Source: Escherichia phage BUCT632. From it: a stretch of 64,000 bases of DNA. The DNA lies in the sequence record PQ488502.1; one strand, 5' to 3'. Positions 20,290 through 31,198 of the stretch are shown piece after piece. A program made the position numbers and the translations under genes. How positions within the stretch are numbered: the stretch's first letter is position 1; each line of letters begins with the position of its first letter. The notes below the pieces were generated by a model. That model did not search any database, was not told the DNA's origin, and was given only the letters and a program-made list of their open reading frames with translations.

Positions 20290-20361
20290 GCCGTCCTAGT
20301 ATAATTGGTATTATCAAGCCGTAACTGGTGGAAGATGTAGGTTCGAATCCTACGGTCGGTA
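20290..20361 (+). ncRNA. tRNA-like element (aberrant anticodon arm)
   Basis: perfect T arm GTAGG-TTCGAAT-CCTAC, D arm with AATTGGTA loop, acceptor with one mismatch; no canonical anticodon stem. Confidence 0.35.
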
Positions 20362-24573: not shown

Positions 24574-24648
24574 GGTTCTCAAGCTCATATGGTATGAGCA
24601 CCCGGCTCATAACCGGAAGGTACGTAGGTTCGAATCCTCGGGGAGCCA
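24574..24648 (+). tRNA. tRNA-Met(CAT), initiator-like
   Basis: anticodon loop CTCATAA; three G:C pairs next to loop; weak T stem; CCA encoded. Confidence 0.65.
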
Positions 24649-27417: not shown

Positions 27418-27522
27418 CCAAATTCTGTGTAGAGTTAAGTAAACCGGTAGCCAATCAGCTATCATTGCTGACATCGAATTCAGCCACAGATACCATTTTC
27501 ATTAATAACTGAGGAAACAAGC

Positions 27523-28168: not shown

Positions 28169-28290
28169 TAAAATTTCAGTGCAGAACACGGAGCTAGCAA
28201 TTCGGAAGTGCTGACTCATGATAAGCTGCCTATGTACTTGCGAAGCGGTCGTGTCCAAGACTCGGACTCTTGCACTGAAAACAATCAAAC

Positions 28291-28411
28291 ATTCTAGCGT
28301 GGTTGATGGGGAAACCAGCTTGGCGAGGGCAGAAGCTCGTTCGATTCGAGTGAAAGAATGGTTCTCGTAAGTCCGCACAAGTGATAACAGGTTCGAGTCC
28401 TGTCTAGAATG
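28291..28411 (+). ncRNA. oversized tRNA-like RNA (~121 nt) with two T-arm-like hairpins
   Basis: complementary acceptor strands ATTCTAG/CTAGAAT, D arm TGGT-TGATGGGGAA-ACCA, hairpins CTCG-TTCGATT-CGAG and ACAGG-TTCGAGT-CCTGT; too long for a canonical tRNA. Confidence 0.35.
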
Positions 28412-28559
28412 ACACTATAAAGTTTACTTATTATGTAGGTTCCGGTAGATCGGCGGGTCTATTCTGGCATTTAAGAGGGGTCTCGCAAACTTCTTTGTCA
28501 GCCGTGGGGTTGGTAGCCTCCAGGCGGCCTACACAATAAGTAAATTTATTAAAAATTCA

Positions 28560-29284: not shown

Positions 29285-29499
29285 AATCCTCATCATAGTT
29301 CACTAAGGTATTAGCTCGACCTAGGACTGGCTGCCAAAAAGCACGATCCCCATGATTCGGGAGAAGTTCTAGATTGGTCCACTAGATTCAGCGGCAACTG
29401 AATAGTGTATTGGGTTTGCGAGATGACGCAGTTCCTTCCGCTCGAAGCGAAGGTGCTGTAGTTACGCCGAGCTAATAGCCTTAGTAAACTAAAGAATTT
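29285..29499 (+). ncRNA. putative structured leader/noncoding RNA upstream of tRNA-Ala
   Basis: ~215 nt promoter-proximal, no plus-strand ORF, several hairpins (e.g. TTCAGCGGCAACTGAA, CCTTCCGCTCGAAGCGAAGG). Confidence 0.3.
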
Positions 29500-29772: not shown

Positions 29773-29860
29773 GGAAGAGCAAATCGAATTGGCGACGAAA
29801 ACCGCTTGGAAAGTGGCTGACTGGTAAAACGGCTTGAGAGTTCAAATCTCTCCTCTTCCG
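29773..29860 (+). tRNA. tRNA-Ser(GGA)
   Basis: acceptor GGAAGAG/CTCTTCC, anticodon loop TTGGAAA, 18-nt variable arm, T-loop TTCAAAT, CCA encoded. Confidence 0.7.
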
Positions 29861-29882
29861 CCAAACACTTGAGGTAATAATA

Positions 29883-30230
29883 ATGCTAGCAAAAGATAAA
29901 GCTCTAGAGTTTTTAGCATCTTTAGATGAAGATAAGATTATAGATGCTGCTGAAAAAGCTGGAATGCCAGATTTAACATATCTGGAACGTGCTATTATTG
30001 CTCGTGATAAACTACAGAAAGAGTTTGCTATTGCTCAGGAGGAGTTTTATACTCGCTATAACGCTCTTACTAAGCAAATTGAAAATGAGTGTTCTCATAC
30101 TTGGGGAGTAACAGAAAACCTAGGTAATGATCACGATGGCTGGTCTAAAGTAAAAATTACCTACTACCATCGTAGGACTTGTAAAATTTGTGGAAAAGTA
30201 GAAAACTTCACTAGTACGAGTGACTATTAG
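29883..30230 (+). CDS. hypothetical protein
   Basis: 115 aa ORF with C-terminal CxxC. Confidence 0.5.
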   Translation: MLAKDKALEFLASLDEDKIIDAAEKAGMPDLTYLERAIIARDKLQKEFAIAQEEFYTRYNALTKQIENECSHTWGVTENLGNDHDGWSKVKITYYHRRTCKICGKVENFTSTSDY

Positions 30231-30243
30231 TATAATAAATACT

Positions 30244-30330
30244 AGAAGATAGGACGTAGTGGTATGTAACTGGTCTTGAAAACCAGCCCGCTGTAGTGAT
30301 ACGGTGATGGTTCGACTCCATTATCTTCTG
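30244..30330 (+). tRNA. tRNA-Ser(TGA)
   Basis: acceptor AGAAGAT/ATCTTCT, anticodon arm CTGGT-CTTGAAA-ACCAG, 19-nt variable arm, T-loop TTCGACT, CCA encoded. Confidence 0.75.
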
Positions 30331-30353
30331 CCAATTAACTATAAGGAAATCTT

Positions 30354-30527
30354 ATGAGCAAAACAGTTACTGTAACAATGAAGGATGGTAAAAAATTTAA
30401 AGCATGTCTTCATGAAACAGATAAGGGATGGATGGCTTATTTGCCACACCTAGATTCCACCGGGTACGGAATGACCCAACGTGAAGCTATTGTTGATGCT
30501 TTAAATGAGGCTTCTGCTGGTTTATAA
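30354..30527 (+). CDS. hypothetical small protein
   Basis: 57 aa ORF after AAGGAAA RBS. Confidence 0.4.
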   Translation: MSKTVTVTMKDGKKFKACLHETDKGWMAYLPHLDSTGYGMTQREAIVDALNEASAGL

Positions 30528-30541
30528 AAATTCTTGAAGTA

Positions 30542-30666
30542 TGCCGGAATTGGTAGACGGGGCTGCCTAAAAGGTTTATAGAGAACATCCACTCTCTACA
30601 ACATACCTCATAAAGCGGCTGAGATAAATGGTCTATCTCGTGAAGGTTCAAGTCCTTCTGCTTCTT
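30542..30666 (+). ncRNA. tRNA-like RNA with Leu-type D arm and distal T arm
   Basis: D-arm signature CCGGAATTGGTAGACGG and T arm GAAGG-TTCAAGT-CCTTC ~100 nt apart; internal hairpins; no complementary acceptor found. Confidence 0.25.
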
Positions 30667-30782
30667 GATACATCTATGGCTCAAAGTGTAACGGTGCTAT
30701 TTGATGCTCTTAGTAAGACTTCCCCGACATGCGTTCGGGAGTAAGCTGCTAAGGCTAGAGTAGAAGAGTTTCTGAGAGCCGC

Positions 30783-30895
30783 CACAATTGAAAATTCGTA
30801 CTCGTCTTGAGCTGCGTGCAATAGGAGATAACTTGATTAGTATTCTAGAACATGCTAATTGAGGAAGGTTTCGCTAACCCTGCGAGTTTTCAATT
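30783..30895 (+). repeat. 13-bp inverted repeat pair abutting the tRNA-His 5' end
   Basis: CCACAATTGAAAA (30783-30795) is the exact reverse complement of TTTTCAATTGTGG (30883-30895). Confidence 0.6.
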
Positions 30896-30969
30896 GTGGC
30901 TATATTATAATTGGTTAATGATCCTGATTGTGAATCAGGCCTATGTGGATTCGAATTCCACTAGCCACC
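30896..30969 (+). tRNA. tRNA-His(GTG)
   Basis: acceptor GTGGCTA/TAGCCAC, discriminator C, anticodon arm CCTGA-TTGTGAA-TCAGG, T-loop TTCGAAT, CCA encoded. Confidence 0.8.
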
Positions 30970-30997
30970 CCAAATTAACTTAAATAGGAAATAAAAT

Positions 30998-31198
30998 ATG
31001 GCTGATTTCTGCAAACAATGCTCTATTGATATGTGGGGTAAAGATACTGGTGATCTTTCTGGTTTGATTACAGAAGCTGAAGTTAAAGAAGGTTACGGTG
31101 CTGTTGTGCTTTGCGAGGGATGCGGAGTTATTCGTGTAGATCATGAAGGCAAACGTCTAGAAGAACCAGAACCAATAGCCACGGTTCCTGTAGAGTAA
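30998..31198 (+). CDS. zinc-ribbon small protein
   Basis: 66 aa with CKQC...CEGC pairs. Confidence 0.5.
   Translation: MADFCKQCSIDMWGKDTGDLSGLITEAEVKEGYGAVVLCEGCGVIRVDHEGKRLEEPEPIATVPVE

What the first reader, a model, noticed from the sequence alone, without database searches (positions are those of the whole stretch)
30530..30969. tRNA-like RNA with Leu-type D arm plus a 13-bp long-range inverted repeat ending at the tRNA-His 5' end
30542-30666 has a textbook D-arm signature (CCGGAATTGGTAGACGG) and a T arm ~100 nt downstream, but no complementary acceptor. Downstream, CCACAATTGAAAA (30783-30795) is the exact reverse complement of TTTTCAATTGTGG (30883-30895), which runs directly into the first base of tRNA-His. 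This pairing could occlude or define the RNase P site in the precursor, or form an alternative structure.
Basis: seen in the sequence. Interest (0 to 1): 0.6.

Follow-up and report, generated by a model that had tools for sequence, protein, structure and literature searches.

The report
Known T5 stable RNAs, processing stem
The flagged stretch holds three small stable RNAs already annotated in phage T5 (RNA1, RNA I, RNA III), and the "long-range repeat" is the stem that brackets RNA III in the primary transcript, most likely a cutting site for the host enzyme RNase III; what the RNAs do is still unknown.

Summary
The window is a T5-like phage (99.5% identical to a Tequintavirus). The T5 and phage 5 GenBank records already annotate 30533-30894 as three stable RNAs "with unknown functions": RNA1 (tRNA-like), RNA I and RNA III, followed by tRNA-His.

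The tRNA-like call is correct. The "no acceptor" claim is wrong: a covarying 6-bp acceptor exists. RNA1 is a Leu-type cloverleaf whose anticodon loop is replaced by a covarying extended arm.

The repeat is real but misplaced by 1 and 4 nt. It is 14 perfect pairs, or 20 counting G·U: 30781-30800 with 30881-30900. It overlaps G1-C5 of tRNA-His. It is the basal stem of RNA III, extended outward in the precursor.

Six unrelated cassettes occupy this slot in relatives, and five of them keep a helix of about 20 bp (the sixth is a 14-bp hairpin). The annotated RNA III ends fall inside the helix with 2-nt 3' overhangs. Two other T5 stable RNAs in the window, RNA 2H and RNA IV, show the same arrangement. 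I infer RNase III processing; this is not demonstrated.

Novelty is low: the objects are already known.

The parts
30533..30677 (+). RNA1, the annotated 'tRNA-like stable RNA with unknown functions' of T5-type phages
   Evidence: Gap-free coordinate map to AJ604531 rna1. T5 rna1 matches 30533-30677 at 86%.
30535..30666 (+). tRNA-like core of RNA1: acceptor 30535-30541/30659-30665 (U1.U72 conserved), D arm 30544-30560, anticodon stem 30562-30566/30615-30619, long variable arm 30621-30639, T arm 30642-30658, discriminator U30666. No CCA is encoded.
   Evidence: Rfam tRNA 25 bits, E=0.008. ARAGORN -i cloverleaf with a 41-nt 'intron'. Covariation: 97.6% of cells paired, 14/35 pairs changed on both sides, 0/500 shuffles reach this, slid controls 42-51%.
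30567..30614 (+). Extended arm that replaces the anticodon loop of RNA1: helix 30572-30575/30605-30608, helix 30579-30584/30593-30598, invariant apical loop ACAUCCAC at 30585-30592
   Evidence: Both helices show compensatory changes. The apical loop is nearly invariant across 23 distinct sequences. The bases at the formal anticodon positions are not conserved.
30678..30784 (+). RNA I, annotated stable RNA: 5' GGCUC pairs with GAGCC, followed by a tRNA-like single-stranded G-CCA 3' end
   Evidence: The central hairpin covaries between the 107-nt and 100-nt variants.
30785..30788 (+). 4-nt spacer CAAU between RNA I and RNA III; part of the 5' arm of the precursor helix
   Evidence: Annotation gap. 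Invariant in all 9 arm variants.
30789..30894 (+). RNA III, annotated stable RNA of 106 nt: 12-bp terminal stem, three internal hairpins, 2-nt 3' tail (AU)
   Evidence: 99% identical to T5 rnaIII. Fold (z = -2.9). Only 13 variable columns in 33 loci.
30781..30800 (+). 5' arm of the 20-bp precursor helix: G-CCA end of RNA I, spacer, and the first 12 nt of RNA III
30881..30900 (+). 3' arm of the 20-bp precursor helix: last 14 nt of RNA III, U-1, and G1-C5 of tRNA-His
30896..30972 (+). tRNA-His(GUG) with encoded CCA and C73. The base at -1 (30895) is T, not G. The T5 and phage 5 records start the tRNA at 30895.
   Evidence: ARAGORN. Rfam 55 bits. GenBank tRNA-His of 78 nt.

Best explanation
Identity (shown). 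The region is the RNA1 - RNA I - RNA III - tRNA-His block of a T5-like phage. These three stable RNAs are already annotated in T5 and in Salmonella phage 5.

RNA1 is a class-II, Leu-like tRNA mimic. Its anticodon loop is replaced by a conserved, covarying extended arm.

The 'long-range inverted repeat' is the terminal stem of RNA III. In the unprocessed transcript it continues outward for 8 more pairs, giving a 20-bp duplex. That duplex pairs the G-CCA end of RNA I plus the CAAU spacer with the RNA III tail, U-1 and G1-C5 of tRNA-His.

Mechanism (inferred). The duplex forms co-transcriptionally and locks up the tRNA-His 5' acceptor strand. Host RNase III then cuts both strands of the palindromic CAAU|UG duplex, at 30788|30789 and 30894|30895. 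This releases RNA III with a 2-nt 3' overhang. It leaves RNA I with a 4-nt trailer, to be trimmed back to CCA. It leaves tRNA-His with a 1-nt leader, free to fold. RNase P would make the 5' ends of the tRNA-like members (RNA1, RNA I).

The functions of the three mature RNAs remain unknown.
For: Identity:
- The region is 99.5% identical to a Tequintavirus.
- The gap-free map to AJ604531 and the T5 RefSeq features rna1/rnaI/rnaIII land exactly here.

RNA1 structure:
- 14 of 35 pairs covary, and 0 of 500 shuffles reach this.

Helix:
- 20 bp, fold z = -5.6.
- The long-helix conformer scores -99.8 kcal/mol against -91.3 for the mature-like fold, and it is present from the moment 30900 is transcribed.

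Conservation across relatives:
- Six different cassettes (42, 77, 120, 135, 147 and 157 nt) fill this slot in 44 sources.
- Positions 10 and 12-20 of the helix change sequence but stay paired.
- Position 21 is unpaired in 6 of 9 arm variants, so helix length is held at about 20 bp.

RNase III geometry:
- The GenBank-annotated ends give symmetric cuts in the CAAUUG palindrome, with 2-nt 3' overhangs on both products.
- This is the established RNase III pattern (PMC6212723).

Independent cases in the same window:
- RNA 2H (29309-29480) lies in a ~23-bp helix. Its annotated ends give a 2-nt 3' overhang, with two G-C pairs between the cuts.
- RNA IV (28433-28535) lies in a 22-position helix with a 1-nt overhang.
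- By contrast, the tRNA-like stable RNAs end in single-stranded CCA-type tails.

Precedent: RNase III takes part in T4 tRNA maturation (PMC4810235).
Against: - No cleavage data are available here. The RNA ends are taken from GenBank features, and I could not check their experimental basis because the 1980s papers are not held.
- The two pairs between the proposed cuts are A-U and U-A. In vivo RNase III sites usually have at least one G-C there.
- Only 6 bp lie outside the cuts. About 11 positions are used on each side in the in vivo motif. Coaxial stacking on the 5-bp RNA I acceptor helix would be needed to make up the difference.
- The outer 9 pairs never vary, so there is no covariation evidence for the part that involves tRNA-His. 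Several of those bases are fixed anyway by the CCA end and by the tRNA-His acceptor sequence.
- The nearest-neighbour energies ignore tRNA tertiary structure.
Confidence: 0.55

Rival explanations
1. RNase P plus exonucleases do all the processing. RNA III's 12-bp terminal stem acts as an acceptor/T-stem mimic and is cut at its 5' end by RNase P. Its 3' end is simply the product of RNase P cutting pre-tRNA-His at -2/-1, as happens for E. coli tRNA-His. The outer 8 pairs are an incidental result of the CCA end of RNA I being complementary to the UGG of the tRNA-His acceptor.
For: RNA I and tRNA-His are ordinary RNase P-type substrates. Both annotated cuts share the context CAAU|UG. The outer helix is invariant and partly constrained by other functions, so it carries no covariation signal. 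The between-cut pairs lack the G-C that is usual for RNase III.
Against: This does not explain three observations. First, five of the six cassettes keep a helix of about 20 bp that stops sharply at position 21. Second, the unconstrained spacer CAAU is perfectly complementary to AU+U-1+G1. Third, RNA 2H and RNA IV, which are not next to a tRNA 5' end in this way, also have ends inside 22-23-bp helices with staggered 3' overhangs. In addition, RNA III has no RCCA tail. U-1 cannot pair with C73 to direct a -1 cut.
Confidence: 0.25
2. The helix is a regulatory alternative structure. It competes with the tRNA-His acceptor stem and so throttles or times RNase P access to tRNA-His. The helix itself is not an endonuclease target.
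For: The predicted 8.5 kcal/mol advantage and the co-transcriptional priority of the long helix over the tRNA-His acceptor. G1-C5 are sequestered in the MFE of the whole block.
Against: The annotated RNA III ends lie inside the helix, so it is cut in vivo if the annotation is right. No effector or switch partner is evident. The same helix design recurs around RNA 2H and RNA IV, where no tRNA 5' end is occluded.
Confidence: 0.1
3. The repeat acts at the DNA level. The conserved inverted ends (GCCACAATTGA / TCAATTGTGGC) would be recombination or homing-endonuclease landmarks that allow cassette exchange in a tRNA region rich in HNH endonuclease genes.
For: Six unrelated cassettes sit between identical flanks. 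HNH endonuclease genes are scattered through the T5 tRNA region.
Against: The cassette-specific inner halves of the arms are also complementary, with G.U pairs that only make sense in RNA. S124 changes CAATTG to CAATTA together with its partner base. Identical flanks are expected anyway from the conserved neighbouring genes.
Confidence: 0.05
4. RNA1 is a true tRNA gene interrupted by a 41-nt intron that is spliced out to give a decoding tRNA.
For: ARAGORN in intron mode calls a tRNA with a 41-nt intron at 30535-30666.
Against: The bases that would form the anticodon loop are not conserved: CUAAA, CGAAU, CCAAU. The 'intron' has its own covarying helices and an invariant apical loop. There is no group I, group II or other intron match in Rfam. 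No CCA is encoded, unlike tRNA-His next door, whose gene carries CCA. Position 1:72 is a conserved U.U. The T5 record lists a 144-nt stable RNA, not a spliced product.
Confidence: 0.03

Closest known systems
Bacteriophage T5 / phage 5 / BF23 stable RNAs RNA1, RNA I and RNA III (GenBank NC_005859 T5s03, T5s02, T5s01; AJ604531 rna1, rnaI, rnaIII)
   Same: Same sequences (86-99% identity), same order, same neighbours (small ORF upstream, tRNA-His downstream), same lengths.
   Different: Nothing essential; this is another isolate's copy. The public records give no structure, processing route or function.
RNase III processing stems that bracket stable RNAs in polycistronic precursors (E. coli 16S/23S rRNA stems; RNase III in T4 tRNA-cluster maturation)
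   Same: Sequences flanking a stable RNA pair into a helix of about 20 bp or more. The mature or intermediate ends lie inside it with 2-nt 3' overhangs. tRNAs are released from the same transcript.
   Different: The helix is short on its outer side (6 bp). It has A-U/U-A between the cuts. It uses the CCA end of one RNA and the first five bases of a tRNA as part of the duplex. Cleavage has not been shown.
Phage T4 stable RNAs species 1 and 2 (rnaC, rnaD) in the T4 tRNA cluster
   Same: [quoted passage not shown]
   Different: No sequence comparison was made here. T5 has seven such RNAs of two architectural classes.
Class II tRNA-Leu
   Same: D loop GGAAUUGGUAGAC, T loop GGUUCAAGUCC, 3-bp D stem and a long variable arm.
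   Different: A 48-nt structured arm replaces the 7-nt anticodon loop. U73 instead of A73. U1.U72. No encoded CCA. Below the Rfam gathering score.

Membership tests
T5-type stable RNAs RNA1 / RNA I / RNA III | Sequence homology to the annotated T5 and phage 5 misc_RNA features | tested here: met
   RNA III 99%, RNA I 92%, RNA1 86% identical to T5, full length. 95-99% identical to phage 5 with no gaps.
T5-type stable RNAs RNA1 / RNA I / RNA III | Synteny: small ORF - RNA1 - RNA I - RNA III - tRNA-His inside the tRNA cluster | tested here: met
T5-type stable RNAs RNA1 / RNA I / RNA III | Accumulation as discrete stable RNAs in infected cells | not testable with these tools
   Rests on the GenBank notes ('stable RNA'). 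The primary papers are not held.
tRNA (Rfam RF00005), for RNA1 | Cloverleaf with acceptor, D and T arms | tested here: met
   Full-length model alignment. Covarying acceptor (6/7 pairs), T stem and variable arm.
tRNA (Rfam RF00005), for RNA1 | Score at or above the curated gathering threshold | tested here: not met
   25.0 bits against a threshold of 29. Not called by default ARAGORN.
tRNA (Rfam RF00005), for RNA1 | 7-nt anticodon loop with a conserved anticodon | tested here: not met
   48 nt lie between the anticodon-stem strands, folded into two covarying helices. The loop-flanking bases vary.
tRNA (Rfam RF00005), for RNA1 | Aminoacylatable NCCA 3' end | tested here: not met
   The acceptor is followed by UUGAUA, and no CCA is encoded. 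Post-transcriptional CCA addition cannot be excluded.
RNase III double-cleavage substrate | Intramolecular duplex of roughly two helical turns | tested here: met
   20 bp at 30781-30800/30881-30900. Length is conserved across cassettes.
RNase III double-cleavage substrate | Product ends staggered with 2-nt 3' overhangs | tested here: met
   The annotated ends 30789 and 30894 give a 2-nt overhang. This depends on the accuracy of the GenBank ends.
RNase III double-cleavage substrate | Paired positions between the cuts, usually with at least one G-C | tested here: inconclusive
   Both positions are paired but are A-U and U-A for RNA III. They are two G-C pairs for RNA 2H.
RNase III double-cleavage substrate | About 11 structured positions on each side of the cuts | tested here: inconclusive
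   12 bp inside and only 6 bp outside. The 5-bp RNA I acceptor abuts directly and could stack.
RNase III double-cleavage substrate | Cleavage depends on rnc | not testable with these tools
   Needs infection of an rnc mutant or an in vitro assay.
Group I/II or archaeal-type tRNA intron (for the RNA1 insertion) | Match to an intron core or a bulge-helix-bulge motif | tested here: not met
   No Rfam match at E<=10. The 4-bp helix is flanked by internal loops, not by 3-nt bulges.
tmRNA | tRNA-like domain plus tag reading frame | tested here: not met
   No tmRNA from ARAGORN or Rfam.

The most novel reading that the evidence does not exclude
The RNase III cut in the palindromic CAAU|UG duplex, rather than RNase P, sets the 5' end of the phage tRNA-His at position -1. 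The gene has T instead of the genome-encoded G-1 that bacterial HisRS normally requires, yet it keeps C73. A cut at 30894|30895 would leave a 5'-phosphorylated U-1, the 78-nt tRNA-His that the T5 records annotate. This would supply the extra 5'-phosphate that HisRS needs without a G-1:C73-guided RNase P cut. In the same reading, the conserved stem defines a swappable slot in which T5-like phages exchange at least six unrelated small RNAs.
Probability: 0.15. Interest if true: 0.65.

Novelty: already known. Interest (0 to 1): 0.3.

Why it matters
The objects themselves are not new. T5 RNA1, RNA I and RNA III have sat in the T5 reference annotation for about 20 years labelled "unknown functions".

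Three results from this check are useful.

1. These RNAs are under clear structural selection. RNA1 covaries throughout, yet many current T5-like genome records overwrite them with spurious protein or tRNA calls.

2. The non-tRNA-like T5 stable RNAs (III, 2H, IV) share one design: ends buried in a helix of about 20-23 bp. This gives a concrete, cheap test, namely infection of an rnc mutant or re-reading of public RNA-seq read ends.

3. The RNA III slot is a hotspot that holds at least six alternative small RNAs behind one conserved stem. It sits directly in front of a tRNA-His that lacks the canonical G-1.

If phage tRNA clusters are partly counter-defence arsenals, as recent work on T5 tRNAs suggests, these co-processed RNAs are obvious candidates for follow-up.

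Tried and rejected
- Rfam at gathering and at E<=10 over 30330-31000, and over five other cassette loci, gave nothing but tRNA. The RNAs are not in Rfam.
- Default ARAGORN misses RNA1. Intron mode finds it, but I rejected the intron reading because the anticodon is not conserved and the insert is structured and conserved.
- The IMG/VR scan with the RNA1 variable-arm sequence returned 22 loci, mostly the same isolates as GenBank. A looser gapped pattern gave mostly chance matches plus a few extra homologues.
- The metagenome scan anchored on the tRNA-His 3' half gave only 8 loci.
- blastn of 30533-30894 against 5,426 E. coli genomes found no match, so there is no evidence that the RNAs copy a host RNA.
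- Pfam on the three flanking small ORFs found no family.
- Literature searches found no paper in the held library on the function or processing of T5 RNA I/III. Kryukov et al. 1983 and Glukhov et al. 2018 are not held.
- The terminator-like hit at 30870-30886 was rejected as a weak 5-bp stem that competes with better-supported RNA III helices and does not match the annotated 3' end.
- I did not score the helix against the published RNase III position matrix, because the table is not in the text I could read.

Full report
**What the window is.** The window carries a cluster of 22 tRNA genes between about 20.3 and 32.8 kb. The stretch 30330-30975 is 99.5% identical to Escherichia phage Stokescottia. 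It matches about 550 T5-like phage records in the Demerecviridae, genera Tequintavirus, Epseptimavirus and Sugarlandvirus. The finding lies in the 368-nt non-coding gap between a 57-codon ORF (30354-30527) and tRNA-His (30896-30972).

**It is already annotated.** Two curated records from the laboratory that sequenced the T5 tRNA region annotate exactly this gap. They are AJ604531 (Salmonella phage 5) and the T5 reference NC_005859. Both list three misc_RNA genes:
- rna1, "tRNA-like stable RNA with unknown functions"
- rnaI, "stable RNA with unknown functions"
- rnaIII, "stable RNA with unknown functions"

The alignment of the window to phage 5 has no gaps, so coordinates transfer exactly:

| Feature | Window coordinates |
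|---|---|
| RNA1 | 30533-30677 |
| RNA I | 30678-30784 |
| Spacer CAAU | 30785-30788 |
| RNA III | 30789-30894 |
| tRNA-His (annotated, 78 nt) | from 30895 |

BLAST of the T5 features gives the same coordinates. None of the three RNAs is in Rfam.

**Checking the tRNA-like observation.** The D-arm string is at 30544-30560 and the T arm at 30642-30658. 30535-30541 pairs with 30659-30665 in six of seven positions; position 1:72 is U.U. The Rfam tRNA model aligns from its first to its last position over 30535-30666. It needs a 45-nt insertion in the anticodon loop and a long variable arm, and scores 25 bits (E=0.008), below the gathering score of 29. ARAGORN in intron mode draws the same cloverleaf with a 41-nt "intron".

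I collected 36 distinct homologues and aligned 23 full-length ones. For the cloverleaf with an extended anticodon arm:
- 97.6% of cells are standard pairs.
- 14 of 35 pairs show changes on both sides.
- None of 500 shuffles reaches these values.
- Sliding the partners by 1-3 columns drops pairing to 42-51%.

Compensatory changes occur in the acceptor (4 pairs), the anticodon stem (3), both helices of the inserted arm (5), the variable arm (1) and the T stem (1). The apical loop ACAUCCAC (30585-30592) is nearly invariant. The variable-arm hairpin varies only by compensated or wobble changes. The bases at the formal anticodon positions vary (CUAAA, CGAAU, CCAAU).

RNA1 is therefore a real, selected, Leu-like tRNA mimic that cannot decode. 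It is neither a decayed pseudogene nor an intron-containing tRNA. No CCA is encoded, and U1.U72 and U73 are conserved.

**Checking the repeat.** The arms are at 30782-30794 and 30887-30899, that is 1 and 4 nt from the stated positions. The second arm therefore overlaps the first four bases of tRNA-His. The repeat finder extends the pairing to 18 nt with one G.U. Folding extends it to 20 pairs, 30781-30800 with 30881-30900: 14 perfect pairs followed by two G.U among six more. A perfect 14-mer inverted repeat within 300 nt is expected 0.05 times in the 13-kb tRNA region. The fold of 30778-30903 has z = -5.6.

**What the repeat is.** Overlaying the annotation shows the following:
- The inner 12 pairs are the terminal stem of RNA III (U30789-A30892 inward).
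- The outer 8 pairs join G-C-C-A (the 3' end of RNA I) and the spacer CAAU to A-U (the RNA III tail), U-1 and G1-C5 of tRNA-His.

For the transcript RNA I-RNA III-tRNA-His, the long-helix conformer is the MFE at -99.8 kcal/mol. A fold forced to contain the tRNA-His acceptor, the RNA I acceptor and only the 12-bp RNA III stem scores -91.3 kcal/mol. The long helix is already present when transcription reaches 30900, before the 3' acceptor strand of tRNA-His exists.

**Comparative evidence.** In 44 sources I found 21 distinct sequences for the slot between the CCA of RNA I and tRNA-His. They fall into six cassettes that are unrelated inside:

| Cassette | Length (nt) | Terminal helix |
|---|---|---|
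| S124 type (simple hairpin) | 42 | 14 bp |
| phiR2-01/S147 type | 77 | 20 bp |
| RNA III | 120 | 20 bp |
| SE24 type | 135 | 21 bp |
| L080 type | 147 | 20 positions with one U.U |
| PRF-SP13 type | 157 | 21 bp |

Across the nine arm variants:
- Helix positions 1-9 and 11 never change.
- Positions 10 and 12-20 change sequence but remain paired. For example, CAATTG becomes CAATTA with its partner TAATTG in S124.
- Position 21 is unpaired in six of nine.

The inner half of the helix is thus maintained by compensation, and its length is held near 20 bp. The outer half, including the part in tRNA-His, is invariant. Invariance says nothing for or against pairing, and part of the outer half is fixed anyway by the CCA end and the tRNA-His acceptor sequence.

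**Mechanism.** The annotated ends put one cut after U30788 and the other after U30894. Both lie in the context CAAU|UG, on the two strands of a palindromic duplex. Both products then carry 2-nt 3' overhangs. That is the signature of a double cut by the RNase III dimer (PMC6212723).

T5 annotates seven stable RNAs, and all seven are in this window. The three that are not tRNA-like behave alike:
- RNA 2H (29309-29480) sits in a helix of about 23 bp. It has a 2-nt overhang and two G-C pairs between the cuts.
- RNA IV (28433-28535) sits in a 22-position helix with a 1-nt overhang.
- RNA III sits in the 20-bp helix with a 2-nt overhang, as described above.

The tRNA-like ones (RNA I, RNA2, RNA3) end in single-stranded CCA-type tails. 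RNase III is known to take part in T4 tRNA-cluster maturation (cited in PMC4810235).

I therefore propose that RNase III excises RNA III. In doing so it frees the RNA I 3' end, which is then trimmed from GCCACAAU back to GCCA, and the tRNA-His 5' strand.

There are weak points:
- The ends come from database features whose experimental basis I could not read.
- The between-cut pairs are A-U and U-A rather than G-C.
- Only 6 bp lie outside the cuts, unless the abutting 5-bp RNA I acceptor stacks on the helix.
- No cleavage assay exists here.

**Rivals.**
- An RNase P-only route is possible. It does not explain the fixed helix length across cassettes, or the same design around RNA 2H and RNA IV.
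- A purely regulatory occlusion conflicts with ends that lie inside the helix.
- A DNA-level role conflicts with G.U pairs and with complementary cassette-specific arm halves.
- A spliced tRNA reading of RNA1 conflicts with the covariation data.

**Novelty and verdict.** The three RNAs and the tRNA-like label are already public, so the finding is "already known". I did not find the following in the literature I could search: the shared "ends inside a ~20-bp helix" design of RNA III, RNA 2H and RNA IV; the six-cassette slot; and the link to a tRNA-His gene that has T rather than G at -1 while keeping C73. G-1 and C73 are the bacterial histidine identity elements, and the 5'-phosphate at -1 is critical (PMC9976931). 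These points are testable but unproven. The functions of the RNAs remain unknown.

Noticed in passing
window 30895-30972: The phage tRNA-His gene has T, not G, at position -1 while keeping C73 and the E. coli-like acceptor GUGGCUA/UAGCCAC. All related loci examined also have T at -1. The T5 and phage 5 records annotate a 78-nt tRNA-His that starts at this U-1. It is unclear how E. coli HisRS, which relies on G-1 and its 5'-phosphate, charges this tRNA.
   Followed up: partly
window 29309-29480 (helix 29296-29318 / 29468-29491): Homologue of T5 stable RNA 2H (96.5% identical). It is embedded in a helix of about 23 bp. The annotated ends give a 2-nt 3' overhang with two G-C pairs between the cuts. 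The stem sequence is conserved even in relatives whose interior is only 74% identical.
   Followed up: partly
window 28433-28535 (helix 28420-28441 / 28526-28547); also 28290-28414 and 27423-27495: Homologues of T5 RNA IV (in a 22-position helix, annotated ends staggered by 1 nt), of RNA2 ('tRNA-like stable RNA') and of RNA3 ('putative tRNA-like RNA'). All seven T5 stable RNAs are present in this window.
   Followed up: partly
window 29773-29863: This stretch is 100% identical to the phage 5 tRNA-Ser(GGA) gene, yet neither ARAGORN nor Rfam at the gathering threshold calls it in the window.
   Followed up: partly
window 24574-24648 and 20290-20361: Rfam calls two tRNAs (40 and 35.5 bits) that ARAGORN does not list. 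Conversely, ARAGORN's tRNA-Ser at 30244-30333 is absent from the Rfam gathering list.
   Followed up: no
L033 about 740-865 (Salmonella phage PRF-SP13) and L034 about 640-765 (Escherichia phage KookSpook): An extra insert of about 125 nt lies between RNA1 and RNA I, starting with a hairpin (AGUGC...GCACU) and an AT-rich stretch. This may be a second variable ncRNA slot. It was not analysed.
   Followed up: no
L005 600-830 (Klebsiella phage Sugarland): RNA1 is conserved (81% identical, same apical loop and variable arm), but its 3' acceptor strand runs straight into the 5' end of an RNA I-like sequence. No tRNA-His follows. The two RNAs may be fused or processed differently in Sugarlandvirus.
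   Followed up: no
window 30678-30784 and relatives: RNA I exists in two forms, 107 nt (T5 type) and 100 nt (Stitch/phiR2-01 type). The ends are identical (GGCUCAAAG...GAGAGCCGCCA) and the interiors largely differ. The central hairpin covaries. The two forms are combined freely with different downstream cassettes.
   Followed up: partly
window 30628-30744 and homologous positions in many GenBank records: Automated annotations place 'hypothetical protein' CDSs over RNA1/RNA I/RNA III (for example Stokescottia 75632-75748). Others place tRNA-Leu, tRNA-Gly or tRNA-Ser calls there. Most records leave the region unannotated.
   Followed up: partly
window 30207-30236: A sigma-70-like promoter match (TTCACT-18-TATAAT, 10/12) lies just upstream of tRNA-Ser(UGA). 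It could drive the tRNA-Ser - ORF - RNA1 - RNA I - RNA III - tRNA-His transcript. The scan as a whole is not enriched over shuffles.
   Followed up: no
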